A stretch of DNA of 62,353 nt, from assembly GCA_046081565.1 (NCBI GenBank), contig JBJTWF010000148.1, positions 1-62,353 on the forward strand. The letters run 5' to 3'. Below, in pieces: positions 1,160 through 32,703 of the stretch (its first letter is position 1; each line of letters begins with the position of its first letter). The notes beneath the pieces were generated by a model. It worked only from the letters and a program-made list of their open reading frames with translations, was not told the origin of the DNA and did not search any database. A program made the position numbers and the translations under genes. This stretch comes from Flavobacteriales bacterium (lineage in GTDB: Bacteria > Bacteroidota > Bacteroidia > Flavobacteriales_D > Crocinitomicaceae).

Positions 1160-1219
1160 TTTTTTTTTACGTGGTTTTTAGCTACCTTCGAAGCGGTATT
1201 AAATACGTTAAATTTTAAG

Positions 1220-2245: not shown

Positions 2246-2290
2246 GGGTAATGCCGTCCTGTAGGTTAAAGGACTTTTGTATTTTTGTTT

Positions 2291-16568: not shown

Positions 16569-18053
16569 ATGAGTTCATCCGTTAAGCGACTTTTTGGCCA
16601 AACCGCCATTTATGGCCTTCCTAGCATCATTGGTCGTTTATTAAATTATTTTCTTGTTCCGCTATACACTGCCGTGTTTACCTCTCCCTCGGATTATGGC
16701 GTGCTATCGGATTTATATGCCTATGTTGCCTTTCTAGTGGTTCTGCTTCCACTGGGAATGGAAACCGCTTATTTTCGGTTTATTCAATCCCACGAGGATA
16801 AAAACAAGGTTTTTAATGCCTGCTTTTTAACCGTTTCGTTAACAAATCTTTTGTTTTTTGTGCTCATCTATTTCACCAATCCTTGGATTGCGAAATGGAT
16901 GCTTTACCCAAACCATCCTGAATACATTTTTTTAATCGGTCTAATCGTTTGTATCGACGCCCTGTCGGCGCTTCCTTTAGCTCGTTTACGGGCAGAAAAC
17001 CAAGCCAAACGGTTTGTATTAATACAGTTGTTTTCTATTGTCGTTAATGTGGTATTAAATGTTTTTTTGTTGCTTACGTATTTTGATCCTTTGCGTCCAG
17101 AAGAAGGGATTTTACTCATTCTGATTGTCAATTTAATTTCCTCCGTTATAAAATTTGCCCTAGTTTCTGATTTAATTTATTCTGTTAAATTCATTTTCGA
17201 TTGGGGATTTTCCAAAAAACTAATAGCGTATTCTTTCCCCTTGGTGATCGCCGGTTTCGCCGGTATTATAAACGAGACGCTCGATCGCGTTTTACTAAAA
17301 CAATTACTATACAACCCCGACGTTCCTGGTTCATTACACTATGCAACGGCGCAAGTTGGAATTTATAGTGCCTGTTACAAACTTGCGATGTTGGTAACCA
17401 TTTTTTTACAAGCATACCGGTATGCTGCGGAACCGTTCTTTTTCTCCCAAATGCATCAAGAGGATAAACATATGGTTTTCAAAAAAACCATGAATATATT
17501 CATCGCCGTCGTTTGTTTTGCCTTCTTATTCGTTTCCATCAACCTTGGTTTTTTTAAGTATTTCATACGAAATGAAGCCTATTATGAAGGCTTAGCCGTC
17601 GTTCCGATATTATTGATCGCAAATGTGTTTTTGGGCATTTATTACAATCAAAGCGTTTGGTATAAACTATCGAATAAAACCCTATTCGGAGCGTATATCT
17701 CCATTGGTGGCGCCTTAGTGACCATTCTGTTAAACCTGTGGTTAATTCCTTTATACGGTTATATGGCGAGCGCTTGGGCAACGCTGTTGGCCTATTTTAT
17801 TCAAATGGTTCTATCTTATTATCTTGGCAGAAGATATTATCCTATTCCATACAACACCCATAAATTTTTCCTTTATCTCGGGTCTTCTTGTTTGATTTTT
17901 TTGGTCTTCTCAGCAGTTAGGATTGGTTTAGGATTGACCATTGAGGCCTTTAATCAACCCCTACTTCTTTTTGGAAATGGGCTAATTGTACTTTTTGTGC
18001 TGATGGTTTACCGAAACGAAAAAGACCTGATCCGTCCAAACAAAATCAACTAA
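16569..18053 (+). CDS. MOP-superfamily oligosaccharide/polysaccharide flippase (Wzx-like)
   Basis: 494 aa, about 12-14 hydrophobic helices. The N-terminus LFGQTAIYGLPSIIGRLLNYFLVPLYT is typical of the polysaccharide biosynthesis protein (Wzx) family. Starts 1 nt after the crotonase stop. Confidence 0.75.
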   Translation: MSSSVKRLFGQTAIYGLPSIIGRLLNYFLVPLYTAVFTSPSDYGVLSDLYAYVAFLVVLLPLGMETAYFRFIQSHEDKNKVFNACFLTVSLTNLLFFVLIYFTNPWIAKWMLYPNHPEYIFLIGLIVCIDALSALPLARLRAENQAKRFVLIQLFSIVVNVVLNVFLLLTYFDPLRPEEGILLILIVNLISSVIKFALVSDLIYSVKFIFDWGFSKKLIAYSFPLVIAGFAGIINETLDRVLLKQLLYNPDVPGSLHYATAQVGIYSACYKLAMLVTIFLQAYRYAAEPFFFSQMHQEDKHMVFKKTMNIFIAVVCFAFLFVSINLGFFKYFIRNEAYYEGLAVVPILLIANVFLGIYYNQSVWYKLSNKTLFGAYISIGGALVTILLNLWLIPLYGYMASAWATLLAYFIQMVLSYYLGRRYYPIPYNTHKFFLYLGSSCLIFLVFSAVRIGLGLTIEAFNQPLLLFGNGLIVLFVLMVYRNEKDLIRPNKIN

Positions 18054-18844: not shown

Positions 18845-21169
18845 CTAATTTATAACCACAACCTTTCCTACTTTTCTTGATGTTCCTTCGTTATTCGCTG
18901 TCCAGAAAAGGTACACTCCCGTGGCTACTTTTGTCCCATCAAGCCTTCTTCCATCCCACACGGCGGTTCCACCGTTGGAAGTCGTTTTAAACACAAGGTT
19001 TCCTGCAATATCCGTGACTTTTACGTCCGAATCGTACCGAATTCCCTGTATCGTAATCAGGCCCTCATAATTGGGTCTCACAGGGTTGGGAAAAACTTTG
19101 ATAGAAGAATAATCTGCATCATCCCAAGAGGCATCGGATCGGTAGGATACCAGGCCTAAGTCTGTAATTATAAATAGTTCCCCGGTTTCATGATTCAAGG
19201 TTAAATCATAAATATTATTTGAAATCAATGGTGAGTTTTCCTTTGTAAATTGTTGAAGTATTTCGGATCCATCGGAGGACAGTAGGATTAAGCCAGAACT
19301 TGCTGTGGCAATCCATTTTCGATTACCCCCGTCCACTTCAATATCCGTTATATGTGTTGTCCCTAATACAAATTCCACGTTTCCTTCGAACCTTACTTTT
19401 ATTCTTTGGGCATTAAATTCGCCCGGAGAAGCATTAAAGGAACCTAAAGGGTTATATAAAACAGCAAAGCCCGCATCGGTGCCAATCCACAATTCACCAT
19501 CTAAATCAACGGCCAGGGCGGTAACGTTCATAGAGGGAAGGGCTCCGGCGAAATCCCCATTCGTTAAATTAATGGTTTTATCATCGGCGGCATTGTCGAT
19601 TGTTCCACCATGGTGATACCCAAAGAGCCCTCCAGTTTCTGAAGCAAACCAAAGGTTTTCGTCAGCATCAATTACCATTCTTGTGGTAAACTTATTCCGT
19701 GCCTCTGAACCGCAATCGAAGGCATACCAATTATCCTCTTTTGTTTTGACAACCAATGGCTTTTCGGTATATCCATTTAAAACCCAAAGGTTACCCTTTT
19801 TGTCGTAGCAAACATCGGATGCTAGGGACCACCCGTTCCCGGCTAGCGAAAGTTGAAGTTGGCTATTGGTTTCGTTGTAAACCATGCATGCGTTGTCTTT
19901 CAATACCGAAATCGGATAGGCAGAATAGGTTGCAACCGCTATTTCGTCGGTATTTCTTGGGTTGATGGACACGTCTATAAAGTCGTGAATGTCTATCCCT
20001 TGCCACGCAGCTTGATTTTCCTTGTCTTGATAACTCCAGTCCTCGTTTTCAAAAACATAGTATCCGTTGCGTAAGAAGCCCGGGCTTTTAAATTCAAGTC
20101 TTCCGCTGGCAATTGCAAGCTTGCCTTTCTGCCAATCCATAGCATAAAAATCATTTCTCGGTGGACCAGGATAAGAAATAGCCTCATAAGAATAGGCTCC
20201 AATAATGCGCATGGGGCCACTAAACTCATCCGCGATCCACTTATCCCCATTCGGCAACGAAACCATCTGGTTGGGTCGAAAAAAAACACCCAAATAAAAG
20301 GTTAAAGCGCTCTCTATTACCTGAGCATTTTGATCTAATGATAAAAGGGCACCATCAGCAAGAACATCAAGTAGGCCTTGGTGCTGTGTTAAGTTAATAA
20401 TTTCTAGTCCTGTTGAATAATACGAAACGGGTATCGCCTCTGTTGGGAGAAGTCGAAGAATCGTGTCTGAACCATAGGCCTCTGTTTTAGCAAGTACATA
20501 GGTTTCTTGTTGTACCTGTTCAATCGCGGCATATTTTCCAGAACCAAACAGAGGGACTCTCGGGTCTTGAATCCATGCCTCCGGAGCGGGCAACATGACG
20601 TCATCAACGTTACCCAAAAGCAACCGTGTTGGGGAAAGCGCATACAAAACGTTGTTGATAACCACTAGGTCAAGAATGGGCTCAGCTCCATTGGTGGGGT
20701 AATAGGTGTCTTTAATTTCATTTTTGTTGGTATTAATCAACACTATTCCGAAATCTGTGGCAACATACACGCCTTGGTTGCTTTGATAAAACCGATTAAT
20801 TCTTTTGCTTCCCGAAAGGTTGGCAAGGCGAATAGCGGGAATATTCGTAATGTTATCCCCACGAATTACATCAATGTTTCCGTTGACGTAGCCCACATAA
20901 AAAGCCTGCTGAATGGAATCATAAAATAAGGCGGAAATCAGCATGTCTGACAGGCCATTCATTTTGTTTAACAGGGCCTTTTCTTTGCTCTCGAGATGAT
21001 ATTTCAAAATTCCATTTTCATACGCCACCAGAACAAATTCTTTGTCGGACGCAATGTCTATGGCTTGTTTTGTGGCTGTATGTAGGCGCCAAGATCCCGT
21101 TTCAATTTGCGCTGAAAGGTTGTAGGCAAGAAAAAACATTGATAAAAACGAAACGAGCCTATACATCAT
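18845..21169 (-). CDS. T9SS-sorted double beta-propeller protein, PorZ-like
   Basis: Signal peptide (FLAYNLSAQ). About 650 aa of repeated propeller-blade-like segments (two-component regulator propeller type). C-terminal T9SS type-A CTD (IKVFPNPV...GVYLFWTAN...GKVVVIN). The 774-aa size and architecture match P. gingivalis PorZ as I remember it. Confidence 0.6.
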   Translation of the reverse strand: MMYRLVSFLSMFFLAYNLSAQIETGSWRLHTATKQAIDIASDKEFVLVAYENGILKYHLESKEKALLNKMNGLSDMLISALFYDSIQQAFYVGYVNGNIDVIRGDNITNIPAIRLANLSGSKRINRFYQSNQGVYVATDFGIVLINTNKNEIKDTYYPTNGAEPILDLVVINNVLYALSPTRLLLGNVDDVMLPAPEAWIQDPRVPLFGSGKYAAIEQVQQETYVLAKTEAYGSDTILRLLPTEAIPVSYYSTGLEIINLTQHQGLLDVLADGALLSLDQNAQVIESALTFYLGVFFRPNQMVSLPNGDKWIADEFSGPMRIIGAYSYEAISYPGPPRNDFYAMDWQKGKLAIASGRLEFKSPGFLRNGYYVFENEDWSYQDKENQAAWQGIDIHDFIDVSINPRNTDEIAVATYSAYPISVLKDNACMVYNETNSQLQLSLAGNGWSLASDVCYDKKGNLWVLNGYTEKPLVVKTKEDNWYAFDCGSEARNKFTTRMVIDADENLWFASETGGLFGYHHGGTIDNAADDKTINLTNGDFAGALPSMNVTALAVDLDGELWIGTDAGFAVLYNPLGSFNASPGEFNAQRIKVRFEGNVEFVLGTTHITDIEVDGGNRKWIATASSGLILLSSDGSEILQQFTKENSPLISNNIYDLTLNHETGELFIITDLGLVSYRSDASWDDADYSSIKVFPNPVRPNYEGLITIQGIRYDSDVKVTDIAGNLVFKTTSNGGTAVWDGRRLDGTKVATGVYLFWTANNEGTSRKVGKVVVIN

Positions 21170-21272: not shown

Positions 21273-22931
21273 ATGTCTTTTTATCAACGTCATCTCTACG
21301 CCACGGGGCTATTTTTGTTTCTTGTTCCCACGGTTATTTTTACCCTTAGCTCCCTAATCCTTATGGTAAACCTGCCTCTGGGCGGTGTAATCTATCCTGT
21401 TTCCTTTATCCTTGCATTGTTTTTGGTGTTTTGGTGGGTTTTCAAAGGTGAAAAAAAAATCTCACTCAATGTCTTTCTTTTTGGGGGAATTGGAACGTTA
21501 TTCACCGTTTTTGCTCTCGGGTTATCCGGTATTTTTTATGATGTATCGTTTGATGGGCAATGGTATCACCAAGATGCCATTTTGTTTTTATCGGACGGAT
21601 GGAATCCCTTTTATGATGCCGGTATCCCTGATGGATTGGTTTCAGGAAACAACGCTAACTATATAAACCATTACCCAAAAGCCACTTGGATTTACCAAAG
21701 CGTGGTTTATCTTTTTTGGGGGAACATTGAATGGGGGAAGTCCTTACACTTCCATCTGTTGTTTTCTTTTGGTTTTTTGCTGTTCTCCTTTTTATCCCAA
21801 AAAACGGTGCTATCCGTAACACAACGCATCATACTGGTGTTAATGGCTGTTATTTCACCCATTACCCTCGGACAACTTTTTAGTTTCTATGTAGATGGAA
21901 TACTCTATTGCTTTCTGGGACTCTTTTTGCTATTCCTTCTTGACTGCGTTGTACACCATGAAAAACGATGGCCCCTCCTTATCTTATCGTTCGTTTTTTT
22001 GATCAATATAAAATTCACAGGTTTGGTTTATGCCCTTTTATTTGCGTTTGGATGTTTCGTTTACCAGACGTGGGTAGCTAAAAAATTGTCCTTAGGCCCT
22101 GTTTTTCGTTTTATCCTTATATCCATCATGGGCGTTTTTGTGTTTGGATACCCAACCTACGGTAGAAACCTAATGGAAAAAAACCATATATTTTTTCCTA
22201 TCATGGGAAAAAACAACGAAGGTCGTCAAATCGCACAAGCACAATATCCCAGTGATTTTTATGGATTAAATCGAGTTGAAAAATTCCTCAGCGCTCACCG
22301 TGCTATCCCCAATTATACTGCAGAAACTCATCCTTCCGTTCCCAAAAAAAACCTGTTTAACCCGAAATTCATTCAATCTTCCATTCCTTACTACAACAAC
22401 CATCAGCCGGTAACTATGAGTCCTTTTGGTCCTTTTGAACTTGAACTCTGGGTGTTCTTCGGGCTTTCCATGATCTTCTTTTTTCTGTTTGTGCGGGAAC
22501 GATTGATTTACTTTTCTTGTGTTTTATTTTTACTTTCCATGCTAATCCAACCTGAGTTTTGGAATTTGCGATATGCGCCACAGCTTTTGTGGTTCATTCT
22601 CTTGGTTCAAGGCGCCCTCTTAATTTCTTCCTATCGCATTGTTCGCCTATTTTCTTTGGTGTTTTGTGTTTTATTTATAACCAACGGTATAATTGCGAGT
22701 AAGGAAAATTGGCGCTGGGTCGCGAATAGAAATCAGCAATTAAATGAAACGTTATTGGAACTTTCTAAAAAAAACGTAGTAATATACCCCGGTTGGATGG
22801 GTTCATTTACATTAAAATTAAAAGACTACAATATAACCTCTTTTCCAAGCACTTCCCGTGGCGAGGGTGGCGCTGTTGAATTTTACGAAGGTGATTTTAC
22901 GGGGTGGAAGTATAAAATAGTACAAGAATGA
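21273..22931 (+). CDS. Polytopic membrane protein, GT-C-like glycosyltransferase candidate
   Basis: 552 aa and at least 10 hydrophobic helices. Long first extracytoplasmic loop rich in Asp and aromatics (YDVSFDGQWYHQDAILFLSDGWNPFYD). Small soluble C-terminal domain. ATGA overlap with the downstream UbiA-family gene. Confidence 0.5.
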   Translation: MSFYQRHLYATGLFLFLVPTVIFTLSSLILMVNLPLGGVIYPVSFILALFLVFWWVFKGEKKISLNVFLFGGIGTLFTVFALGLSGIFYDVSFDGQWYHQDAILFLSDGWNPFYDAGIPDGLVSGNNANYINHYPKATWIYQSVVYLFWGNIEWGKSLHFHLLFSFGFLLFSFLSQKTVLSVTQRIILVLMAVISPITLGQLFSFYVDGILYCFLGLFLLFLLDCVVHHEKRWPLLILSFVFLINIKFTGLVYALLFAFGCFVYQTWVAKKLSLGPVFRFILISIMGVFVFGYPTYGRNLMEKNHIFFPIMGKNNEGRQIAQAQYPSDFYGLNRVEKFLSAHRAIPNYTAETHPSVPKKNLFNPKFIQSSIPYYNNHQPVTMSPFGPFELELWVFFGLSMIFFFLFVRERLIYFSCVLFLLSMLIQPEFWNLRYAPQLLWFILLVQGALLISSYRIVRLFSLVFCVLFITNGIIASKENWRWVANRNQQLNETLLELSKKNVVIYPGWMGSFTLKLKDYNITSFPSTSRGEGGAVEFYEGDFTGWKYKIVQE

Positions 22932-23806
22932 TAACCATTTTTTCTTTATTAAGAATTAAAAGTTGGGTTAAAAATGGGTTTCTCTTGCTGCCCGCCGTTT
23001 TTTCGTTACACCTGTTTACTCCTGGGGTATTATCCTCTTTATGCATTGGCTTTCTTGCCTTTTCGCTTTCTTGTTCTTTTGTTTATATCATAAATGACAT
23101 TCAAGACCGTGAGCGAGATCAATTGCATCCTAGGAAAAAACTTCGTCCTATCGCTTCGGGTAAAGTTTCTGTACGCAGCTCCCTTTTTGCTGCCCTGGTT
23201 TGTCTGAGTATTGCTTTATTCCTTGCCTATAGCGTTCTTTCAAGCGTAGCCTTCACGCTTTTAATGCTCGGATATGTTGCCGTAAATGTTGGTTATTCGT
23301 TTGGATTGAAGAATATTCCCTTACTCGAATTGATTATTGTCTCCGTAAATTTTGTGTTACGCGTTTTAGCGGGATGTGTTATTTTAAAGGAAACCCCCTC
23401 GCATTGGATTTTGGTCGTTACCTTTTTTATGTCTCTGTTTTTAGTGGTGGTTAAAAGAAAATCCGAACTGTTGCAACTCAACATGCATGCTACTGCACAC
23501 CGAAAATCTTTGGCTTCATATACCCTTTCCTTTTTGAATGTTCTTATTTATATTTCCGCAACCGTTACCCTTACCGCTTATTTACTGTACTCCATGGACC
23601 CAGCAGTCATTCATTCCTTGGGTTCTTCGAATGTATTATATAGTTCCTTATTTGTATTACTAGGACTCATACGATACATTCAAATCAGTGAACTTTCTTT
23701 ATATGAAGGAGAGGGAGACCCTACCACCCTATTGTTTAAAGATGGGTTTCTTTTGGCAACCATTTGTGCTTGGGTCTTCTATCTTGTTTTGATTATTTAT
23801 GTCTGA
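22928..23806 (+). CDS. UbiA-family polyprenyl-phosphate phosphoribosyltransferase (decaprenyl-phosphate 5-phosphoribosyltransferase, Rv3806c-like)
   Basis: 292 aa, about 8-9 TM helices. The motif IINDIQDRERDQLHPRKKLRPIASGKVS matches the NDxxDxxxD...HPxKxxRPIAxG block that I associate with Rv3806c-type enzymes. Confidence 0.75.
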   Translation: MITIFSLLRIKSWVKNGFLLLPAVFSLHLFTPGVLSSLCIGFLAFSLSCSFVYIINDIQDRERDQLHPRKKLRPIASGKVSVRSSLFAALVCLSIALFLAYSVLSSVAFTLLMLGYVAVNVGYSFGLKNIPLLELIIVSVNFVLRVLAGCVILKETPSHWILVVTFFMSLFLVVVKRKSELLQLNMHATAHRKSLASYTLSFLNVLIYISATVTLTAYLLYSMDPAVIHSLGSSNVLYSSLFVLLGLIRYIQISELSLYEGEGDPTTLLFKDGFLLATICAWVFYLVLIIYV

Positions 23807-24419
23807 TCCGCGCGTAAACCTAGCTTTTTTTGATTTTGATGGCACCCTGTATCGTGGAGACTGTTTTGTCGATTTTTGTCTTTTTTTTTATCGTAAAAAC
23901 CCGTTAAGGTTGAGGTTTAGTTTTCATCAACTCATTTCGTTTTTCTTGTGGAAAACAGGAATAATTGATACGACTACGTTTAAATCTCGGTTCCTAATTT
24001 TCTTGCAAAAAGACTCGATGGAAAAAGTGGAGGCCGTAATAAACGACTTTTGGGCTCTCCGAAGAAGATTCCATGAGGCGGTTTTGGATGCGTTGTCTAT
24101 GGCGAGACAACAAGGATATACCTGTATCGTTGTGTCGGCTTCACCAGAAATATTGTTAAACCCTGTAAAAAACAACCTGATGCTGGATGCTGTAATCGGC
24201 ACGGAGCTCGTTTCTACCCCAAAAGGGTGGCGTATTGAAATAAACTGTAGAGGAGAGATAAAGTGGAAAAAAATCCAGGAACGTTATTCTTCCTTTTGTC
24301 TTCAAGTGGCTTATTCAGACAACCAGGACGATGAAATCATACTACAGAAAGCGATTAAAGGGTATGTGGTTCATAAGGGAACGATAATCCCATTCATGGG
24401 GACGGATGATCAACGATAA
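23799..24419 (+). CDS. HAD-IB superfamily phosphatase
   Basis: HAD motif I FFDFDGTLY, motif II VVSAS, motif IV YSDNQDDE. 8-nt overlap with the UbiA-family gene. Confidence 0.8.
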   Translation: MSDPRVNLAFFDFDGTLYRGDCFVDFCLFFYRKNPLRLRFSFHQLISFFLWKTGIIDTTTFKSRFLIFLQKDSMEKVEAVINDFWALRRRFHEAVLDALSMARQQGYTCIVVSASPEILLNPVKNNLMLDAVIGTELVSTPKGWRIEINCRGEIKWKKIQERYSSFCLQVAYSDNQDDEIILQKAIKGYVVHKGTIIPFMGTDDQR

Positions 24420-26454
24420 ATGCCGCATCCAATCGTTGTTGTTCGGTTTCAGAAACATGATTGATCTTCGCTTTTGTTTGAATATCTTTTTTCCATACTG
24501 GATCGCGATTTATTTTTAAAATAATCTTAGCTATTTCTGCTTCTCTTAGTGAATGTCGAATTGATTTTGTCGCATTTACCTTTTTCAACGATTGCTCATC
24601 TAAATAATACCAACACTCGCTCCCGGAGCGAACTAGCCTCCAAGAATCCTTGCGGCAAGAAGGGAGAATACCAAACGGTTTTAACGCGTCTAATCGGTGG
24701 TTATGAACCGCCATTTTAGTAATTGTACTGGTGTTGTTACAGTAAATAACGGGGGGCGTCCTTTCCGAAAAATCAAATTGCTGGGTTGTCCGAGCAATAA
24801 AAATTTGAGGATCAGGATTATACCAAGAGGGGACCTGGTTCAAAAACCATGTGGCGATAGGCATATGGGATAAATTTGACCAATCAAAGCGATTATGAGG
24901 GTTGTGCAACTTTATTAACCCGCCCTGTGTTAAAAGACAAAAAAGGAATATTACCCGTTGCCAACGAGTCGAATAGGTTGCTAATAGATAAAACGCATGA
25001 AATAAAAGCGGTACCGCAATCCATGTTGCGTATCGATTTACAATGGCCATCCCGTGGTTCCAATTGCTCATGGCACAAACGGTAAGGGTCATCATCAATA
25101 CGACCATTGGAATGAAATCCCAATGGGTAATCGTTTTATTTTTTAAAACCCTAAATCCTCGCTGAATTAAAAGAAAAATATAGACAAAAATCCAAAGACC
25201 GATGCCTAGGATCATTCCCTGGTTCCAATCCATAAAAAAACCATAGATGCGCTCAAGTGTAATGTTATTTACTGATAGAAAACCCGCCTCTTTTATTAGG
25301 CTTGTTTTACCGAACAAAACCCAAAAATAAATCGACGGCATGAAAGGGATTATGGATAATATCCCCAGTAAAACCATTTTTTTTGCCTCCGTTCTGCTTT
25401 CCCACCCAAGAGGAACCAACATCCATAGGAAAACAAGAAACAAGGGTTGATTTTGAAGGGTGGCAAGCCCCACAAAAACCAATGCCAACCATCGTAAGGA
25501 ATGAGTCCAAGCAATAAACCCTGACGCCAGTAAAACAAAGGTGAAAACTTCGGGATGGGTCCAACTCGAATAATAAAAAATTCCACTAAAAAACAATACC
25601 AAAAGGGATAAAAACGCAAGCTTTTTCCTTTTAAAAAGAAGAAAAAAAGCCCATACCAGAAAGGCGAACCAAAACATCGCGTTGGTATAAATAAACGCTT
25701 TTATCGGGTGGAATCCAACCCATTCAGAGACCCACCTCATGGGCGTATTTACCAAGGAATAAAAAACAAAATGATATCCATACACATCACCCGCTTGGTT
25801 TCTATAAAAACCCCCATATTCTGATCGCGTTTTTGATGCTAAAAACTGTTCTACCTCATCAAACGCTTGTTTCTTATAATTATCCTTCCACGCCTGGTGG
25901 GCTAAAAAATCTGTTTTAAACGAACGATAATCTGTTAACCGAATATCTGGAGACCCATGGTTTTTCCATGCTTCCGTCGTTAGAATATATTCTATTCCAT
26001 CTCCGGTTGGATAGGGCTCTGCTTTGTTGATATAAAACCCAAAGAGGAGAAGCAAAGCATACCGGGATGCCTTACCGATAAAGATAAACAAAAAGGTTTT
26101 TTTCCAAGGGGATCTAAAAAAACCTAATGCAACCGATAAGACGTCGCCAATAAACGGAAGCCAAGAAAGTAGGGCCATCCACGGGCCATAACGGTGGACC
26201 TTTCCTTTCCATCGTTCGATTTGTTCCTGGGATACTCCCACCCTTTTTAACCATATCGGTTTGGCTAAATATCCGATGCCATAATTCAAGAATCCTCCTA
26301 AGGTATTTCCTGCGGTTGCTACCAGCAAACAGAGCCAAGGGTTAAAAGAAAAAAGCATCAAGACAAAAAGTGCTTCTGATGCAATAGGCAAGATAGTCGC
26401 GGCTAAAAACGCGGCTAAAAACAATCCTAAATATCCCCAGGCAATCCAGTCCAT
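24394..26454 (-). CDS. Fusion protein with an N-terminal DedA/YqaA (SNARE-associated, VTT) domain and a large GT-C-like polytopic membrane domain
   Basis: The first ~140 aa (LGLFLAAFLAATILPIASEALFVLML...GNTLGGFLNYGIGY...LSWLPFIGD) look like YqaA/DedA. The remainder is ~540 aa with many TM helices. It has an acidic/aromatic loop after the DedA-like domain (YPTGDGIEYILTTEAWKNHG) that resembles the loop of the 21273 gene. Confidence 0.55.
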   Translation of the reverse strand: MDWIAWGYLGLFLAAFLAATILPIASEALFVLMLFSFNPWLCLLVATAGNTLGGFLNYGIGYLAKPIWLKRVGVSQEQIERWKGKVHRYGPWMALLSWLPFIGDVLSVALGFFRSPWKKTFLFIFIGKASRYALLLLFGFYINKAEPYPTGDGIEYILTTEAWKNHGSPDIRLTDYRSFKTDFLAHQAWKDNYKKQAFDEVEQFLASKTRSEYGGFYRNQAGDVYGYHFVFYSLVNTPMRWVSEWVGFHPIKAFIYTNAMFWFAFLVWAFFLLFKRKKLAFLSLLVLFFSGIFYYSSWTHPEVFTFVLLASGFIAWTHSLRWLALVFVGLATLQNQPLFLVFLWMLVPLGWESRTEAKKMVLLGILSIIPFMPSIYFWVLFGKTSLIKEAGFLSVNNITLERIYGFFMDWNQGMILGIGLWIFVYIFLLIQRGFRVLKNKTITHWDFIPMVVLMMTLTVCAMSNWNHGMAIVNRYATWIAVPLLFHAFYLLATYSTRWQRVIFLFCLLTQGGLIKLHNPHNRFDWSNLSHMPIATWFLNQVPSWYNPDPQIFIARTTQQFDFSERTPPVIYCNNTSTITKMAVHNHRLDALKPFGILPSCRKDSWRLVRSGSECWYYLDEQSLKKVNATKSIRHSLREAEIAKIILKINRDPVWKKDIQTKAKINHVSETEQQRLDAAFIVDHPSP

Positions 26455-26460
26455 AAAAAA

Positions 26461-26478
26461 AGGCCGGAAATCCGGCCT
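26461..26478 (-). terminator. Rho-independent terminator of the 26499..28319 gene
   Basis: AGGCCGGA-AA-TCCGGCCT perfect hairpin, followed on the minus strand by a T7 run (A-run 26455-26461 on the plus strand). Confidence 0.85.
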
Positions 26479-26498: not shown

Positions 26499-28319
26499 TT
26501 ACTTTTTTACAAAATGCTTGGTTACTACTCCTTCTTCTGATTGAAGTTTCACAACATACATTCCGGGTGCTAAATCACTAATTGCAACTTGTTGCGCTTG
26601 AACACCGTTGTTTGGCGTGAAATTCAAGTCAGTAACTACCGCTCCTAAATGATTATAAATTGCTCCTTCAACGCTGTTCGCGCCTTTGAAGTCAGCCTTA
26701 ATGTTCAAAACATCATTCGCTGGGTTAGGATAAACAACTGCACCAATAGCCGATGTGTTTTCGTTTATCCCAATGGTAGGATTAAAATTCAAACGAACCC
26801 AAGGGGTAGAAGTCTGGTAGTACCACGTATTGTCCAGCAAGTCCAAAAAGAAAGACGTTTGAGGTACGGAAGATCCAGCATTTACAAGCTTTAATCCAGT
26901 ACCATAGGCACCAACAACCGCGAGGTATGTCTTGTTTGCCATAAGGTTTACAGGAACATTCAATGCAATCATCTTGTTTACATTTAAATCCGGTGCAGCA
27001 ACAATTACTGGATCTGATTCTGATTCGAAAACGAAATCACCGGTAGTCGGATCTATAGAATATAACTTAACGAATACCTCGGTGCCCACCGTTGTACCAT
27101 TGGCTCCTCCCAACAAACGAACATCAATGCCTTTCAATTCTTGATCGGCCCAAACATCATATAAGTTACCTGCTTCAAATCCATCTGCTCCGTTCGACGT
27201 GGACCCGGCAGGAGTTCCGTTGTCACGTGCATAAATATAGTCGTTTACACTGAACGTGGTGTTTGTAAAGGCATTGTTTGCTGGAACATCGTCCGTAGAG
27301 TCTGCGGTTAGGGTGTGAACTACGGTGTAGTTTCCTATCGCAGCGGGAGTAAACGCTGTAGAAACCGTTAACGTTGCTGTGTCAAGTGACGGAATGGTAA
27401 CGGCAGTTGATGATCCGGTAAAGGCTCCTGCGTTAACGTTAACATTATATTGGACCCCGGGTTGTGCATTTATTCCCCCATTGAACGCCTTAATTTCAAA
27501 ATCTATTGGAGCGGTTTGTGTTATTGGAATTTGATAGTAATACAACCCTGCTGTTCCCCAATATTTATCGGTTACGCTTAAATCATTGGTAGGATTGGTT
27601 ACAATCTTAACGTTATCAATGTACCACCCATAGGTAATCCAAACGTTAGGATTGGTTGCAGAATTAGGGTAGTTTGTTGTCCAGCTAAATCGAACCCAAA
27701 CGTTTCCTGGATTTGCGGGAAGGATGGTGGCTAAGTTAATCGTTTTCAGGTCTGGATTGCTGTAAGCAGAGCCACCAGAAGCCGAAAGAACTGATTTGTC
27801 TAAGTTGTCGCCTACCGTTGTCCAAGTGTTTCCATTGGTACTAATTTGAATCTCTTGTAAGTCGTTAAACCTTGCGCCGTATTGTTCGAAGGATAAGCTT
27901 ACTTGATTAGTGCCTCCTAAAGCCGTTATATTAATTGGATTCGCTGTGGTTAAGGTGTAGGTAACCGCTAAGGCTTGTGTTCCTGGGGTTACCGTTGGGT
28001 CTCCGTTCACCAATTCCGCATAGTTTCCTCCTCCGGTAGAATTTATTCCATTGGCCGAAAACCAACCATCCGAGACGTTATTGATGTTCCATCCATATTC
28101 GATCCCAGATTGACCACTATTATCTATGGTCCAATTGGCGACATTATCAAAATTATCAGACCAAAGGGTAACCCCTAAGCTTTTGCTGGATTCTAACGGT
28201 TTTTGATTGAGTTGGTGTTGTCTTGGCACCAAGTGATTTGCGTTTTGAATAAGTGGGCTTTTTTGCGCCATAGTTAGGGTGCTAAATCCCAATAGACCAA
28301 AGAGTAGTGTTCTTTTCAT
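26499..28319 (-). CDS. T9SS-sorted secreted or surface protein of unknown function (beta-rich; N-terminal region reminiscent of MAM or choice-of-anchor-J-type domains)
   Basis: Signal peptide (FSTLTMAQ). WSDNFDNVANWTIDNSG...GWNINN pattern. C-terminal CTD VYPNPANDVLNIK...GMYVVKLQSEEG..KHFVKK. Confidence 0.7.
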   Translation of the reverse strand: MKRTLLFGLLGFSTLTMAQKSPLIQNANHLVPRQHQLNQKPLESSKSLGVTLWSDNFDNVANWTIDNSGQSGIEYGWNINNVSDGWFSANGINSTGGGNYAELVNGDPTVTPGTQALAVTYTLTTANPINITALGGTNQVSLSFEQYGARFNDLQEIQISTNGNTWTTVGDNLDKSVLSASGGSAYSNPDLKTINLATILPANPGNVWVRFSWTTNYPNSATNPNVWITYGWYIDNVKIVTNPTNDLSVTDKYWGTAGLYYYQIPITQTAPIDFEIKAFNGGINAQPGVQYNVNVNAGAFTGSSTAVTIPSLDTATLTVSTAFTPAAIGNYTVVHTLTADSTDDVPANNAFTNTTFSVNDYIYARDNGTPAGSTSNGADGFEAGNLYDVWADQELKGIDVRLLGGANGTTVGTEVFVKLYSIDPTTGDFVFESESDPVIVAAPDLNVNKMIALNVPVNLMANKTYLAVVGAYGTGLKLVNAGSSVPQTSFFLDLLDNTWYYQTSTPWVRLNFNPTIGINENTSAIGAVVYPNPANDVLNIKADFKGANSVEGAIYNHLGAVVTDLNFTPNNGVQAQQVAISDLAPGMYVVKLQSEEGVVTKHFVKK

Positions 28320-28364
28320 AGATTAAATTTAATTCAATGGATAAAAATATAAAAAGCAAAGCAA

Positions 28365-29153
28365 TTAAACGAATCTTTCTTTTAAAAAAGGCAGGTTTTT
28401 TCGAGATTCAGAGAGCAAAGCAGCCGACAGGGTAAAGCAAAGAACCGCTTCGTCTTTATCCAAAAGTGAGGCCAACAAGGCTCCTTCAGGAGAATAGATG
28501 GAGGAATGCCCATTGTAATGAATTTGATTTCCATCCATTCCTGTACGGTTTACTGCACAAACATAGGACTGGTTTTCGAGGGCACGAGCGGCTAACAGAA
28601 GATCCCAATGAGCTATACGTTTCGCTGGCCAATTAGCTACGTATAACAACGCATCATAACGAAACCCTCCCCCTGGCTTTACATGGTTTCTTGATCCCTC
28701 AGGAAAGCGTAAGTCAAAACAAATTTGTAGCATCACATTCCATCCATTAACCCCTACGACCACTTCATTGCTTCCGGAAAGAAACGCGGCTTTTTCCCCG
28801 CCGAACGCAAAAAGGTGACGCTTATCATAGGTTGTTATCGTTCCTTTTGCGTCCACAAACACCCCTCGATTTACAAAGCCATTTTCCGTTTTTGCCATCA
28901 ACGAAGTAAAAACAGCGGTGTTAAAATCCGCGGAAATCCGCTTTAAAAATTGGATCCCCTCCGATTCGTTCCACAGTGTTTTACACAAGGAAGTATTCAT
29001 TGAGAATCCCGTATCGAACATTTCTGGTAAAAGCACTAAATCCACCTTTTTATTGCGAATTATTTCCATTAATGCCTTTATTTTACCCTGATTTTTACTG
29101 GGAGATTCCCAGTGTTGATCAAACTGTACGAGGGCTACTGTTAAATCTTGCAT
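28365..29153 (-). CDS. Carbon-nitrogen hydrolase family omega-amidase (YafV/Nit2-like)
   Basis: Nitrilase-superfamily E-K-C triad contexts LVLLPEMFDTGF, YDKRHLF and LQICFDLRFPE. The ATG at 29153 (MQDLTVALVQ...) is preferred over the start at 29201. Confidence 0.85.
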   Translation of the reverse strand: MQDLTVALVQFDQHWESPSKNQGKIKALMEIIRNKKVDLVLLPEMFDTGFSMNTSLCKTLWNESEGIQFLKRISADFNTAVFTSLMAKTENGFVNRGVFVDAKGTITTYDKRHLFAFGGEKAAFLSGSNEVVVGVNGWNVMLQICFDLRFPEGSRNHVKPGGGFRYDALLYVANWPAKRIAHWDLLLAARALENQSYVCAVNRTGMDGNQIHYNGHSSIYSPEGALLASLLDKDEAVLCFTLSAALLSESRKNLPFLKERFV

Positions 29154-31815: not shown

Positions 31816-32703
31816 ATGGAGATTTTACTGATTGGAGGAACGGGTTTTATTGGGCAGGCGGTATGCCATTTTTTTCAAGAAAAAGGCGTTCCTGTAATCG
31901 TATTAACAAGAAATCCTAGCGAAACACATCATCGGTTTTGGGACCCAATCCATAAAGAAGGAGCCTATGATTCTTTGGAAAACATCACCCATATCATCAA
32001 TGTAAACGGCGCTGGAATTGCTGAAAAACGATGGACTAAAAAACGCAAGCATGTGTTACGCACTTCGCGGGTCGAGGCAACAGAATATTTATATAAAGTA
32101 ACAAAAGAACATTGCCCTAATCTTCGTCATTATCTTGGAATTTCTGGCATCAATGCGTTTGGGTTTTCAGACCACAAGGTGTTTCATGAGGAAGACCCTA
32201 TGGGTACAGACTATTTGTCTTGCTTGGTTTCTTCGTGGGAAAAAGCACATCAATTGTTTAAAAAACGTGTGCCAACTACGATCATTAGGCTTGGGATGGT
32301 GATAGACCCGCGTGGTGGGGCCTATGAAAAGATGGCAAACCCTATTCGGCTTGGTTTTGGCGCTGTGGTAGGAAATGGCCATCAGAAGGTTCCATGGATT
32401 TCGTTATCGGATGTGGTTGGACTCCTCCATCATCTTTGCGTTGATCCTAATCCATCACCCACGTTGATTCATGGCGTGAGCAATCATTCAACCATGCACG
32501 ATATTACGCATTTCATCGCGAGACAAGAGGAAAAAAAAATTCGATTACCCAACATTCCTTCCTTCGTTATTTACCTGTTGTTCGGAAGGATGGGTCAACT
32601 TCTTACAAGATCTCTTCAGGTGCACACGGAATCCCTAATTGCGACTGGATACCCCATTAAAAACCCAACCCTAAGCTCAATACCCCATGCGAAAAAAGAC
32701 TAA
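31816..32703 (+). CDS. TIGR01777 (YfcH-like) NAD-dependent epimerase/dehydratase-family protein
   Basis: N-terminal Rossmann motif LLIGGTGFIGQAV. ~295 aa with the extra C-terminal domain typical of YfcH. Confidence 0.75.
   Translation: MEILLIGGTGFIGQAVCHFFQEKGVPVIVLTRNPSETHHRFWDPIHKEGAYDSLENITHIINVNGAGIAEKRWTKKRKHVLRTSRVEATEYLYKVTKEHCPNLRHYLGISGINAFGFSDHKVFHEEDPMGTDYLSCLVSSWEKAHQLFKKRVPTTIIRLGMVIDPRGGAYEKMANPIRLGFGAVVGNGHQKVPWISLSDVVGLLHHLCVDPNPSPTLIHGVSNHSTMHDITHFIARQEEKKIRLPNIPSFVIYLLFGRMGQLLTRSLQVHTESLIATGYPIKNPTLSSIPHAKKD

What the first reader, a model, noticed from the sequence alone, without database searches (positions are those of the whole stretch)
24394..26454. DedA/YqaA domain fused to a GT-C-like glycosyltransferase body: possible physical coupling of lipid-carrier recycling to periplasmic glycosyl transfer
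Seen in the sequence: the first ~140 residues look like a YqaA/DedA (SNARE-associated) four-helix membrane domain. They continue without a stop into ~540 residues of polytopic membrane protein. The loop after the DedA-like domain (YPTGDGIEYILTTEAWKNHG) resembles the first loop of the 21273 gene (FDGQWYHQDAILFLSDGWNP), which suggests the two are distant paralogues.

Established knowledge: DedA-family proteins have been implicated in returning undecaprenyl phosphate to the cytoplasmic leaflet. GT-C enzymes release polyprenyl phosphate on the outer leaflet.

Inference: the fusion would place the carrier-recycling activity next to the enzyme that generates free carrier. I have not seen this arrangement described.
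Basis: partly seen in the sequence, partly recalled or inferred. Interest (0 to 1): 0.7.

Follow-up and report, generated by a model that had tools for sequence, protein, structure and literature searches.

The report
YqaA membrane module fused to glycosyltransferase
A freshwater Flavobacteriales bacterium has fused a small YqaA-type (DedA-superfamily) membrane protein of unknown function onto a large periplasm-facing sugar transferase that uses lipid-linked ribose-type donors, which gives a testable hint that YqaA proteins move such lipid-linked sugars across the membrane.

Summary
ORF 24394-26454 (-) encodes 686 aa: a YqaA-type DedA/VTT domain (Pfam PF09335, above cutoff) runs without a stop into a ~540-aa polytopic membrane protein. 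It is not an artefact. Independent assemblies 67-70% identical carry the same junction, both halves are under purifying selection, and the topology is coherent.

The body is very probably a GT-C glycosyltransferase of the GT136 type. Its family co-occurs with a polyprenyl-phosphoribose synthase (UbiA) and a HAD phosphatase in 44 of 54 loci across phyla. It reproduces the spacing of all eight tested residues of the GT136 prototype. A Pantoea member sits in an O-antigen locus.

The locus is therefore a variant of the published three-component pentofuranose glycosylation system, with a second GT-C (the 21273 gene).

The proposed mechanism, carrier recycling, is weakly supported. The domain belongs to the YqaA/COG1238 subfamily, where the two UndP-binding arginines are replaced by invariant Trp and Asp.

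I favour the YqaA module as the donor flippase, a slot filled elsewhere by MATE, SMR or GtrA proteins.

An opportunistic fusion of overlapping neighbours remains a strong rival, because yqaA keeps the same position in relatives that lack the cassette. Paralogy with the 21273 gene is not detectable by sequence; both have GT-C folds.

The parts
24394..26454 (-). Whole fused ORF, 686 aa: YqaA-type DedA/VTT module plus GT136-like GT-C glycosyltransferase body
   Evidence: ORF listing; custom HMMs place VTT at aa 1-142 and BODY at aa 133-683; AF2 pLDDT 88.9, pTM 0.83
26026..26454 (-). YqaA/COG1238 module, aa 1-143. Predicted layout: re-entrant helix 1 (8-33), TM (39-63), basic cytoplasmic amphipathic segment (64-90), re-entrant helix 2 (91-112), TM (117-144)
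   Evidence: PF09335 at 50.2 bits; 40% identity to E. coli YqaA; 52-71% identity to free-standing 141-165-aa YqaA proteins; AF2 secondary structure and K/R distribution
26143..26163 (-). Tip of re-entrant helix 2, W98-L-P-F-I-G-D104. This is where UptA-type DedA proteins carry two arginines
   Evidence: In alignment A4, YqjA GRFIAFVRT aligns with SWLPFIGDV. W98, P100 and G103 are invariant and D104 is present in 119 of 120 YqaA-type sequences; no basic column lies between 89 and 113
26005..26034 (-). Fusion junction, aa 141-150 (YINKAEPYPT). The last YqaA helix is joined directly to the first periplasmic loop of the GT, and the GT's own first TM helix (about 25 codons) is lost
   Evidence: Alignment A1; DNA comparison with the split relative L003; identical junction in L001 and L022
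25702..26022 (-). First periplasmic loop (EL1), aa 145-251: an alpha-helical subdomain carrying the candidate catalytic motif D152-x-x-E155-Y156 (25987-26001) and H228 (25771-25773)
   Evidence: Invariant or nearly invariant columns of A3; spacing equals D31/E34/Y35/H106 of GT136 ORF12
24895..25701 (-). GT-C transmembrane core, aa 252-520 (10 TM helices). Conserved periplasm-facing motifs: W298-x-H300-P-E302, Q334-N-Q, D409-x-N-Q-G, N464-W-N-H-G, R474-Y475 (25030-25035)
   Evidence: A3 conservation; topology by the positive-inside rule; Foldseek top hits ALG9, PglB, EmbB, PimE, ArnT and AftB, though none is significant
24394..24894 (-). C-terminal extracytoplasmic alpha/beta domain, aa 521-686, with conserved aromatic residues (Y545, F552, W615, Y617, W654). 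It may bind the acceptor, like the ORF12 CBM
   Evidence: AF2 secondary structure; A3 invariant columns; analogy with the ORF12 C-terminal CBM. The role is inferred
23799..24419 (+). HAD-IB phosphatase, the candidate phosphoribose phosphatase (PRP). Its 3' end overlaps the fused gene convergently by 26 nt
   Evidence: PF12710 at E=1.8e-21; weak match to the HAD part of the fused HAD-UbiA model NF006088; co-occurs with BODY in 43 of 54 loci
22928..23806 (+). UbiA-family polyprenyl-phosphate phosphoribosyltransferase (PPPRS, Rv3806c-like), which makes the lipid-linked pentofuranose donor from PRPP
   Evidence: PF01040 at E=2.4e-27; best NCBIfam hits are the decaprenyl-phosphate phosphoribosyltransferase models (212.6 bits, just under the 234 equivalog cutoff); found within 8 kb of BODY in 44 of 54 loci
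21273..22931 (+). Second GT-C-fold membrane protein (TM552), which overlaps the PPPRS gene by 4 nt
   Evidence: AF2 pLDDT 91.5, pTM 0.93; Foldseek hits AftA (E=1.7e-3, prob 1.0), ALG12, EmbA/B and Pmt1/2; no sequence homology to BODY
16569..18053 (+). Wzx-like MOP-superfamily protein, a rival candidate for the donor flippase. It lies 3.2 kb from the cassette, separated by PorZ and two small genes
   Evidence: PF01943 and PF13440; detected in 17 of the 79 loci from the genome scan and also in the encoding-contig loci, in every case in the cassette-bearing Flavobacteriales clade
26461..26478 (-). G+C-rich hairpin followed by T7, directly abutting the ATG of the fused gene (terminator-like, conserved in split relatives)
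   Evidence: Terminator scan; the same structure lies upstream of yqaA in L003

Best explanation
The ORF is a genuine, evolutionarily fixed fusion of two formerly separate genes that overlapped by 11 nt: a YqaA-type (COG1238) DedA-superfamily membrane protein and a GT-C glycosyltransferase of the GT136 type.

It belongs to a variant of the 'three-component' periplasmic pentofuranose glycosylation system. The steps are as follows.

1. [quoted passage not shown]
2. The HAD phosphatase (23799-24419) removes the 5-phosphate to give UndP-ribofuranose.
3. This donor is moved to the outer leaflet.
4. The GT-C body transfers the pentofuranose to a periplasmic glycan acceptor. It uses D152/E155/Y156 in its first periplasmic loop, with H228 and R474/Y475 holding the phosphate-sugar head group.
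5. A second GT-C (21273-22931) adds another sugar or serves another acceptor.

I propose that the YqaA module is the translocation step. It would be a scramblase or flippase for the lipid-linked donor, and possibly also for the released UndP. It would occupy the slot that MATE, SMR/ArnEF-like or GtrA proteins fill in other such systems. Its last helix doubles as the first TM helix of the GT-C, which puts the exit of the translocator next to the donor-binding groove.

Shown here: the fusion, the domain identities, the conserved link between the body, PPPRS and HAD, and the topology.

Inferred: the sugar identity, the acceptor, and above all the flippase role of the YqaA module.
For: **The fusion is real and under selection.**
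- Independent assemblies give the same 686-aa protein; the same junction was read in the window, P0002, L001 and L022.
- The fused forms are monophyletic and nested within split forms.
- The YqaA part is more conserved (83-85% identity) than the body (63-78%). dN/dS is about 0.14, and all nine conserved YqaA-family positions checked are retained.

**The topology is coherent.**
- The fusion deleted the GT's own TM1, so the last YqaA helix (in to out) leads straight into the periplasmic loop. K/R residues cluster on the predicted cytoplasmic loops.

**The body is a PPPRS-dependent GT-C.**
- UbiA lies within 8 kb in 44 of 54 well-flanked loci and HAD in 43 of 54. These loci span Bacteroidota and Oxalobacteraceae, plus one UbiA-linked Patescibacteria MAG.
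- The Pantoea dispersa member sits between his and gnd in the order HAD-UbiA, SMR, body, beside GT4 and Gmd/Rmd-type genes. This mirrors the C. youngae O1 cluster.
- The conserved family residues reproduce the spacing of all eight ORF12 residues tested by Kelly et al. (D31, E34, Y35, H106, H174, E176, R349, Y350). In P0084 they fall at D29, E32, Y33, H102, H171, E173, R354, Y355.
- The spacing pattern matches 84 of 222 family members, 0 of 614 other large proteins and 0 of 4,440 shuffles.
- The best structural matches are all GT-C enzymes.
- Other family members are fused to GT87 or Acyl_transf_3.

**The flippase slot.**
- Other PPPRS systems encode SMR/ArnEF-like, GtrA or MATE transporters in cis.
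- The Flavobacteriales cassette encodes none of these. Instead yqaA overlaps the GT gene by 11 nt in 24 of the 25 scan loci that hold both genes unfused; the exception is L043.
- No GtrA, MATE, SMR or DUF368 gene occurs elsewhere in the 62-kb window, apart from one Wzx-like gene.
Against: - YqaA orthologues (56-59% identical) occupy the same position, downstream of the aminotransferase, CN-hydrolase and 604-aa Por_Secre_tail genes, in relatives with no body, UbiA or HAD gene within 6 kb. YqaA therefore has a role independent of this cassette, and the adjacency may be accidental.
- In L043 (same clade) yqaA lies 7.5 kb from the body gene. All other Bacteroidia and proteobacterial loci lack an adjacent VTT gene.
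- No second, independent DedA-GT-C or DedA-PPPRS association was found.
- A Wzx-like MOP protein 3.2 kb away could be the flippase, as the MATE protein is in Citrobacter.
- No COG1238 protein has a demonstrated substrate.
- GT136 membership could not be tested against the ORF12 sequence itself. ORF12's CDD label 'EpsG family' is not reproduced by Pfam in this family.
- Foldseek E-values for the fused model are not significant (best 0.14).
Confidence: 0.4

Rival explanations
1. Opportunistic fusion. YqaA has a housekeeping function unrelated to this pathway. The glycosylation cassette landed next to yqaA, the two genes came to overlap, and a small deletion merged them. The fusion is tolerated because the last YqaA helix has the right orientation to replace the GT's first TM helix. 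The two modules then work independently.
For: yqaA is syntenic with the upstream aminotransferase, CN-hydrolase and Por_Secre_tail block in genomes with no cassette within the 6 kb examined. The fusion occurs in a single clade of two species-level lineages. L043 shows the genes can be separated. COG1238 proteins are widespread in genomes such as E. coli K-12. Most BODY cassettes have no VTT neighbour.
Against: The 11-nt overlap is conserved across split lineages that are only 40-50% identical, which suggests maintained translational coupling. The cassette lacks the cis-encoded MATE, SMR or GtrA flippase seen in the PPPRS systems outside Bacteroidota. The fusion has persisted through about 33% protein divergence with strong constraint on both parts.
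Confidence: 0.33
2. The DedA-type module returns free undecaprenyl phosphate, released by the GT-C on the outer leaflet, to the cytoplasmic leaflet. Carrier recycling would thus be physically coupled to glycosyl transfer.
For: DedA-superfamily members of COG0586 (UptA) are UndP transporters, and polyprenyl-phosphate transporter genes do cluster with glycosylation genes: PopT with AglB in archaea, DedA with PAP2 by fusion. GT-C enzymes release polyprenyl phosphate at the outer face (established knowledge). A scramblase could carry both donor and product.
Against: The module is COG1238, not COG0586. The two arginines implicated in phosphate binding are replaced by W98 (invariant) and D104 (119 of 120 sequences). 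Todor et al. considered COG1238 unlikely to be UndP flippases. E. coli YqaA was not among the paralogues reported to give MX2401 resistance in B. subtilis.
Confidence: 0.15
3. Artefact. A sequencing or assembly frameshift merged two separate genes, or the ORF is a decaying pseudogene.
For: Most relatives have two genes overlapping by 11 nt, so a one-base error could in principle join the frames.
Against: The fused form also lacks about 25 codons (the GT's TM1), which is more than a frameshift. The same 686-aa architecture occurs in JGI, NCBI, ENA and Logan data at 67-98% identity. dN/dS is far below 1.
Confidence: 0.02

Closest known systems
Three-component extracytoplasmic pentofuranose glycosylation system of Citrobacter youngae O1/O2 (ORF15 PRP-PPPRS, ORF14 MATE flippase, ORF12 GT-C, the founding GT136 member; Kelly et al. 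PNAS 2024, PMC11127046)
   Same: It has a UbiA-type PPPRS, a HAD phosphoribose phosphatase and a large GT-C with about 11 TMs. An alpha-helical periplasmic domain follows TM1 and an extra extracytoplasmic domain sits at the C-terminus. The conserved residues D-x-x-E-Y, H, H-x-E and R-Y have the same spacing as the residues mutated in ORF12. A Pantoea member of the same family lies in an equivalent O-antigen locus.
   Different: PRP and PPPRS are separate genes here. No MATE or SMR gene sits in the cassette; instead a YqaA/DedA module is fused to the GT-C N-terminus and replaces its TM1. A second, unrelated GT-C-fold protein is co-transcribed with PPPRS. The host is a Bacteroidota member with a T9SS, and the acceptor is unknown. 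Direct alignment to ORF12 could not be done.
Mycobacterial decaprenyl-phospho-arabinose pathway (Rv3806c DPPR synthase, Rv3807c phosphatase, DprE1/E2, Rv3789, AftA/AftB/EmbABC)
   Same: A PRPP-derived polyprenyl-phospho-pentofuranose donor is made by a UbiA homologue and used by GT-C enzymes. The second GT-C of the window (TM552) has AftA as its best structural match.
   Different: No DprE1/DprE2-like epimerase genes lie in the cassette, so the donor is probably ribofuranose. The phosphatase is HAD type, not PAP2. The carrier is presumably undecaprenyl rather than decaprenyl phosphate.
E. coli YqaA and the COG1238 subfamily of the DedA superfamily (Todor, Herrera & Gross, mBio 2023, PMC10127716)
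   Same: 40% identity over 124 residues. Same size, and the same re-entrant-helix motifs (ILP..SE and SW.P..GD). [quoted passage not shown]
   Different: 99% of COG1238 proteins are single-domain; this one is covalently joined to a glycosyltransferase. No function is known for the subfamily.
UptA-type UndP transporters (COG0586 DedA: B. subtilis YngC/UptA, E. coli DedA) and their PAP2 fusions (Roney & Rudner)
   Same: Same superfamily fold (PF09335). There is precedent for fusing a DedA protein to an enzyme of an adjacent step in a lipid-carrier cycle.
   Different: A different subfamily. The phosphate-binding arginine pair is replaced by Trp and Asp. The fusion partner is a GT-C rather than a PAP2 phosphatase.
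Arn pathway (ArnC, ArnE/ArnF SMR-type flippase, ArnT GT-C) and Gtr systems (GtrB, GtrA, GtrC-type GT-C)
   Same: The logic is the same: a cytoplasmic lipid-linked monosaccharide synthase, a small polytopic flippase and a periplasmic GT-C. In sister systems of the BODY family the small protein is ArnE/F-like.
   Different: The donor comes from PRPP rather than a nucleotide sugar. The candidate flippase belongs to the DedA superfamily and is fused to the transferase.

Membership tests
DedA/VTT superfamily (Pfam PF09335) | Significant match to the family HMM over the whole domain | tested here: met
   aa 26-139 match profile positions 3-121 of 123, E=4.6e-13, 50.2 bits against a cutoff of 33.9
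DedA/VTT superfamily (Pfam PF09335) | Two re-entrant helix hairpins separated by a TM helix and a cytoplasmic amphipathic segment | tested here: met
   The AF2 model shows broken helices 8-20/25-33 and 91-98/102-112 around proline-containing tips, TM 39-63 and a basic segment 64-90. This is predicted, not experimental.
YqaA / COG1238 subfamily | [quoted passage not shown] | tested here: met
   E=2e-25 against E. coli YqaA and E=0.37 against YqjA. E27 is invariant. No basic column lies between 89 and 113 in 120 relatives. JGI names the 98% homologue 'membrane protein YqaA'.
UptA-type UndP flippases (COG0586) | Conserved arginine pair (YghB R130/R136) at the tip of re-entrant helix 2 | tested here: not met
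   These positions align to W98 (invariant) and D104 (119 of 120 sequences)
UptA-type UndP flippases (COG0586) | UndP transport activity (MX2401 resistance, reduced surface UndP) | not testable with these tools
   Literature only: E. coli YqaA was not among the paralogues reported to confer resistance
GT-C fold glycosyltransferases | Polytopic (7-13 TM) protein with an extracytoplasmic loop or domain after TM1 that carries a conserved catalytic acidic residue | tested here: met
   11 TMs, counting the shared helix. EL1 (145-251) is predicted periplasmic by the positive-inside rule and carries invariant D152 and nearly invariant E155.
GT-C fold glycosyltransferases | Structural similarity to solved GT-C enzymes | tested here: inconclusive
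   The top meaningful Foldseek hits are ALG9 (prob 0.99), PglB, EmbB, PimE, ArnT and AftB, but the best E is 0.14 and TM-scores are 0.2-0.36. HMM searches of PDB sequences and Pfam find nothing.
CAZy GT136 (C. youngae ORF12) | Sequence homology to the founding member | not testable with these tools
   The ORF12 sequence (MH325883.1) and the listed homologues (BK026208.1, CP099034.1, CP032687.1) are absent from the accessible collections
CAZy GT136 (C. youngae ORF12) | Functionally tested residues D31, E34, Y35, H106, H174, E176, R349, Y350 and the architecture (11 TM, alpha-domain after TM1, C-terminal extracytoplasmic domain) | tested here: met
   Family-conserved D-x-x-E-Y, H(+76), H-x-E(+148) and R-Y(+322) in the window protein; D29, E32, Y33, H102, H171, E173, R354, Y355 in P0084; D31, E34, Y35 exactly in Pantoea P0350. 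The pattern occurs in 0 of 614 other large proteins and 0 of 4,440 shuffles. Caveat: ORF12's CDD label 'EpsG' is not reproduced.
CAZy GT136 (C. youngae ORF12) | Genomic association with PPPRS and PRP | tested here: met
   UbiA in 44 of 54 and HAD in 43 of 54 well-flanked loci. The Pantoea O-antigen locus has the order HAD-UbiA, SMR, body.
Three-component pentofuranose glycosylation system | Polyprenyl-phosphate phosphoribosyltransferase plus phosphoribose phosphatase | tested here: met
   The UbiA protein scores best against decaprenyl-phosphate phosphoribosyltransferase models (212.6 bits, below the 234 equivalog cutoff). HAD-IB is adjacent and overlapping.
Three-component pentofuranose glycosylation system | Dedicated MATE-, SMR- or GtrA-type flippase encoded in the cassette | tested here: not met
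   None lies in the cassette or elsewhere in the window. Only the fused YqaA module and a Wzx-like gene 3.2 kb away are candidates.
   BLASTP best E=0.041, non-colinear. hhalign 5.9% and 5.4%. Both are GT-C folds by structure prediction.

The most novel reading that the evidence does not exclude
YqaA/COG1238 DedA proteins are the general translocators of polyprenyl-phosphate-linked monosaccharides in Bacteroidota, and perhaps in other Gram-negative bacteria. They would be the functional equivalent of GtrA, ArnE/F and MATE flippases. This would explain three things: why Bacteroidota pentofuranose cassettes carry no flippase of their own, why yqaA is conserved with or without the cassette, and why it could be fused productively to a GT-C. 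The fusion would then be a Rosetta stone assigning a substrate class to an orphan DedA subfamily, and an example of substrate channelling between a lipid scramblase and a glycosyltransferase that share a helix.
Probability: 0.22. Interest if true: 0.8.

Novelty: new variant of a known kind. Interest (0 to 1): 0.55.

Why it matters
The function of the YqaA (COG1238) branch of the DedA superfamily is unknown. The flippases that move polyprenyl-phosphate-linked sugars have never been shown biochemically for any system.

A natural fusion of a YqaA module to a lipid-linked-sugar-dependent glycosyltransferase is informative here, because it sits in a cassette that lacks the transporters found in proteobacterial and phage versions of the system. 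It gives a concrete substrate hypothesis, UndP-ribofuranose, that can be tested in an existing genetic system (C. youngae O1 orf14).

The analysis also shows that a large uncurated protein family, with more than 2,000 representative clusters and no Pfam model, is very probably the GT136 pentofuranosyltransferase family. That extends three-component pentofuranose glycosylation to Bacteroidota, where its target is unexplored; it could be LPS or the glycans that anchor T9SS cargo.

If the fusion is merely opportunistic, the finding is still useful. It would be a clean example of topology-constrained gene fusion and would give a correct annotation of the locus.

Tried and rejected
- **Sequence searches with the body.** Pfam, NCBIfam and PDB-sequence searches with the single protein and with the A3 profile gave no significant family. 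The only signals were weak NCBIfam hits to AZOBR_p60025 (13 of 37 members) and to LA_3751/2.
- **Obtaining GT136 or ORF12 homologue sequences.** BK026208.1, NZ_CP099034.1 and CP032687.1 are not in the local collections. blastn of the Pantoea cassette against the E. coli genomes found nothing. A literature search for 'GT136' returned only the founding paper.
- **DUF6044 as the GT136 type.** I tested the big membrane partner in phage contig MT837543.1. It is unrelated to BODY by hhalign (6%) and lacks D-x-x-E-Y, so I rejected it as the same family.
- **The Azospirillum extension.** The N-terminal 495 aa of the 968-aa Azospirillum 'UbiA' protein is not related to BODY (hhalign 1.4%).
- **Paralogy between BODY and TM552.** Rejected at the sequence level.
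- **EpsG signal.** I looked for it to match ORF12's CDD label and found none.
- **Independent DedA fusions or adjacencies.** The top 120 YqaA homologues are all 127-165 aa with no long fusion proteins. The long members of the BODY family carry GT87 or Acyl_transf_3 instead. Four sampled plasmid PPPRS loci carry GtrA or nothing annotated.
- **Neighbours in VTT-less loci.** Clustering of unannotated neighbours found no recurrent small flippase.
- **Inter-domain packing.** I could not examine it because the tool returns no coordinates or PAE.

Full report
**1. The observation**

The window contains an uninterrupted 686-codon ORF on the minus strand at 24394-26454. Residues 26-139 match the Pfam VTT/DedA domain PF09335 above the curated threshold (E=4.6e-13, 50.2 bits against 33.9). 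The rest of the protein matches no Pfam family. It gives only a weak NCBIfam hit to 'AZOBR_p60025 family cell surface glycopolymer formation protein'. An AlphaFold2 model built on a 62-sequence alignment is confident (mean pLDDT 88.9, pTM 0.83). It shows a helical membrane protein with a soluble alpha/beta C-terminal domain.

**2. The fusion is real and derived**

A search of 5.8 billion proteins found about 80 homologues of the C-terminal body. Only two clusters carry the fusion: P0001 (98% identity) and P0002 (70% identity). The others are 569-587 aa and lack the VTT domain.

In the split relatives (40-50% identity), a separate 143-144-aa VTT gene lies immediately upstream and overlaps the body gene by 11 nt. 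The wider neighbourhood is syntenic with the window.

Alignment shows that the fusion joined the last helix of YqaA directly to the motif AEPY(P/A)TGDGIEY. It also removed the body's own N-terminal TM helix, about 25 codons, so it is more than a frameshift.

Distant homologues that have no VTT neighbour still keep that N-terminal helix. The split state is therefore ancestral.

In a neighbour-joining tree the fused proteins form one clade nested among split ones. The clade comprises the window and L001/L022, which are 96% identical to each other and 67% identical to the window.

Between the two fused lineages the YqaA part is 83-85% identical and the body 63-78%. Synonymous sites are saturated. 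For the close pair L001/L022, dN/dS is about 0.14 for the YqaA part and about 0.22 for the body. All nine conserved YqaA-family positions checked are retained.

An assembly artefact or a pseudogene is effectively excluded.

**3. What the N-terminal module is**

Its nearest relatives are free-standing 141-165-aa proteins that JGI names YqaA. It is 40% identical to E. coli YqaA (E=2e-25) and shows no significant similarity to E. coli YqjA, a COG0586 DedA protein (E=0.37). It therefore belongs to the COG1238 subfamily.

[quoted passage not shown] They also report that 99% of COG1238 proteins are single-domain.

I verified the residue argument directly. The YqjA segment GRFIAFVRT aligns with SWLPFIGDV here. 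W98, P100 and G103 are invariant and D104 is present in 119 of 120 YqaA-type sequences. No basic column occurs between positions 89 and 113.

Roney & Rudner expressed all eight E. coli paralogues in a B. subtilis UndP-transport mutant. Only DedA gave high-level MX2401 resistance, with small effects for YqjA and YabI. YqaA is not reported as positive.

**4. What the C-terminal body is**

Three lines of evidence converge.

*(a) Genomic context.* The genes convergent with the ORF are a HAD-IB phosphatase (23799-24419) and a UbiA-family enzyme (22928-23806). The best NCBIfam matches of the UbiA enzyme are decaprenyl-phosphate phosphoribosyltransferase models.

I scanned one genome per GTDB species with the body profile and annotated 79 loci with custom HMMs. 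A UbiA gene lies within 8 kb in 44 of 54 well-flanked loci, and a HAD gene in 43. These include distant Bacteroidia and Oxalobacteraceae (as a HAD-UbiA fusion), plus one Patescibacteria MAG that has a UbiA gene but no detected HAD gene.

*(b) The published paradigm.* Kelly et al. (PNAS 2024, PMC11127046) described 'three-component systems' for periplasmic addition of pentofuranoses. The components are a PPPRS (UbiA type, with a HAD phosphoribose phosphatase), a flippase (MATE or SMR), and a GT-C enzyme, ORF12, which founded CAZy family GT136.

ORF12 has 11 TM helices, an alpha-helical periplasmic domain after TM1 and a C-terminal extracytoplasmic domain. D31, E34, H106 and R349 are essential, Y35 and Y350 are important, and H174 and E176 are dispensable.

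The body family has conserved D-x-x-E-Y immediately after the first TM helix, a His about 76 residues later, an H-x-E about 148 later and an R-Y about 322 later. In member P0084 these residues are D29, E32, Y33, H102, H171, E173, R354 and Y355. In several 632-651-aa members the first motif is exactly D31-x-x-E34-Y35.

With a tolerance of 8 residues, the ORF12 spacing pattern is found in 84 of 222 family members. It is found in none of 614 unrelated proteins of 400 aa or more, and in none of 4,440 shuffled sequences.

One of the D31 members is a 651-aa Pantoea dispersa protein. It lies between the his operon and gnd in the order HAD-UbiA, SMR-like, body. Next to it are GT4, Gmd/Rmd-type and multi-GT4 genes. 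That organisation matches the C. youngae O1 O-antigen cluster.

*(c) Structure and topology.* The only biologically sensible Foldseek matches of the model are GT-C enzymes: ALG9 (probability 0.99), PglB, EmbB, PimE, ArnT and AftB. E-values are not significant (best 0.14) and TM-scores are low.

Hydropathy and the positive-inside rule place all conserved polar motifs on the periplasmic side and the K/R-rich loops in the cytoplasm.

Other family members are fused to a GT87 module or to an Acyl_transf_3 glycan acyltransferase.

*Caveats.* I could not obtain the ORF12 sequence. ORF12's CDD label 'EpsG family' is not reproduced by Pfam for any member tested.

I rate 'PPPRS-dependent GT-C glycosyltransferase' at about 0.85 and 'member of GT136' at about 0.7.

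The family is large, with 2,073 representative clusters at E<=1e-3, and has no curated model.

**5. The rest of the system**

The 552-aa protein at 21273-22931 overlaps the PPPRS gene by 4 nt and has no Pfam or NCBIfam match. Its AF2 model is very confident (pLDDT 91.5, pTM 0.93). The model matches AftA (E=1.7e-3, probability 1.0), ALG12, EmbA/B and Pmt1/2. It is a second GT-C-fold enzyme.

It shows no detectable sequence relationship to the fused body. 'Distant paralogue' therefore holds only at the level of fold class.

No DprE1/E2-like or ORF13-like epimerase lies in the cassette. The epimerase-family gene at 31816-32703 is also present in cassette-less relatives. The donor is therefore most simply UndP-ribofuranose.

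The acceptor is unknown. The cassette is flanked by PorZ and by a T9SS cargo gene, which invites speculation about LPS or cargo-anchor glycans, but nothing here tests that.

**6. What the YqaA module does: the uncertain step**

*In favour of a role in the pathway:*
- Sister PPPRS systems outside Bacteroidota encode a small transporter in cis. It is SMR/ArnEF-like in Duganella, Azospirillum, Pantoea and a phage contig. It is GtrA in Burkholderia, Rhizobium and Cereibacter plasmids. It is MATE in Citrobacter.
- This slot is evidently prone to non-orthologous replacement.
- The Flavobacteriales cassette has none of these. The only polytopic small protein in cis is YqaA, whose gene overlaps the GT gene by 11 nt in 24 of the 25 scan loci that hold both genes unfused.
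- The window contains no other GtrA, MATE, SMR or DUF368 gene.
- The fusion is topologically exact, and the YqaA part is the most conserved part of the fused protein.

*Against:*
- YqaA orthologues occupy the same position after the Por_Secre_tail gene in relatives with no cassette gene within the 6 kb examined. This is the resident yqaA, not a dedicated paralogue.
- One clade member (L043) has the genes 7.5 kb apart. All other Bacteroidia cassettes have neither VTT nor any other recognisable flippase in cis.
- A Wzx-like MOP protein 3.2 kb away is an alternative candidate.
- I found no second, independent DedA-GT-C association.

*Weighing these,* I commit to the donor-translocator reading as the single most likely role (about 0.35-0.4). 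It may be bidirectional, so that it also returns UndP. The opportunistic-fusion rival follows closely (about 0.33), and pure UndP recycling comes third (about 0.15).

A unifying possibility is that YqaA is the housekeeping polyprenyl-P-sugar translocator of these bacteria. That would account for its conservation without the cassette and for the lack of cis-encoded flippases in Bacteroidota cassettes. It is speculative (about 0.22).

**7. Verdict**

The locus is best filed as a new variant of the known three-component pentofuranose glycosylation system. Its GT136-like GT-C has captured a YqaA-type DedA module as its first transmembrane segment.

The mechanistic claim of carrier recycling is not supported by the subfamily's features. 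A donor-flippase role is more plausible but unproven.

The value of the finding is that it turns the orphan YqaA subfamily into a testable hypothesis. It also annotates a large uncurated glycosyltransferase family in Bacteroidota.

Noticed in passing
window 21273-22931 (+): The 552-aa membrane protein with no Pfam or NCBIfam match is confidently predicted to be a GT-C fold (pLDDT 91.5). Mycobacterial AftA is its best structural match. It has invariant D90, D94 and Y98 and nearly invariant H99 after a TM helix, and it overlaps the PPPRS gene by 4 nt. It is restricted to the same Flavobacteriales clade that has yqaA next to the body gene.
   Followed up: yes
window 26461-26478 (-), just upstream of ATG 26454: A 7-bp, G+C-rich hairpin followed by seven T's runs directly into the start codon of the fused gene. 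The same arrangement precedes yqaA in split relatives (L003 around 7556-7580). It looks like the terminator of the upstream T9SS-cargo gene, which leaves unclear how the fused gene is transcribed and translated.
   Followed up: partly
window 24394-24419: The 3' ends of the HAD phosphatase gene (+) and the fused gene (-) overlap convergently by 26 nt. The same convergent overlap occurs in syntenic relatives.
   Followed up: no
L019 11513-12504 (E. coli K-12 yqaA-yqaB): In E. coli, yqaA overlaps yqaB, a HAD-family sugar-phosphate phosphatase, by 4 nt. This is a second case of a YqaA gene next to a HAD phosphatase. It may be coincidence.
   Followed up: no
P0302, P0322 (members of the body family): The body family (2,073 representative clusters, no Pfam model) includes proteins with an N-terminal GT87 (GT-C) module and others with an N-terminal Acyl_transf_3 module. 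Several Bacteroidia and Oxalobacteraceae loci carry two or three tandem paralogues.
   Followed up: partly
L101 (MT837543.1, phage contig from human faeces) 898-5419: A complete three-component-like operon on a phage contig: UbiA, separate HAD, SMR/EamA-like 118-aa protein, NAD-dependent epimerase and a 565-aa DUF6044 protein. DUF6044 appears to be yet another large membrane partner of PPPRS systems. It is unrelated in sequence to the body family.
   Followed up: partly
L009, L044-L075 (Bacteroidia loci): In other Bacteroidia the cassette order is body, UbiA, SAM-methyltransferase, HAD. It is accompanied by a soluble GT2, Acyl_transf_3, MBOAT, a PMT_2-type GT-C and an amine-oxidase-type flavoprotein, which might modify or epimerise the lipid-linked pentose. 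No small flippase gene is present.
   Followed up: partly
L021 7516-10838 (Azospirillum lipoferum 4B plasmid AZO_p3): A 968-aa protein annotated 'UbiA family prenyltransferase' consists of a 495-aa membrane module of unknown type fused to HAD and UbiA. An ArnF-like SMR protein follows it. This is another fusion within this pathway.
   Followed up: partly
L013-L018 and window 26499-30262: The block aminotransferase, CN-hydrolase, 604-606-aa Por_Secre_tail (T9SS cargo), yqaA is conserved across freshwater and marine Flavobacteriales whether or not the glycosylation cassette is present. This suggests a link between yqaA and the T9SS cargo gene that I did not explore.
   Followed up: no
window 5520-6911, 60437-61300, 18845-21169: The window also encodes RodA (FtsW/RodA/SpoVE family), the UndPP phosphatase BacA/UppP and the T9SS component PorZ. 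These are ordinary envelope genes and are not part of the cassette.
   Followed up: no
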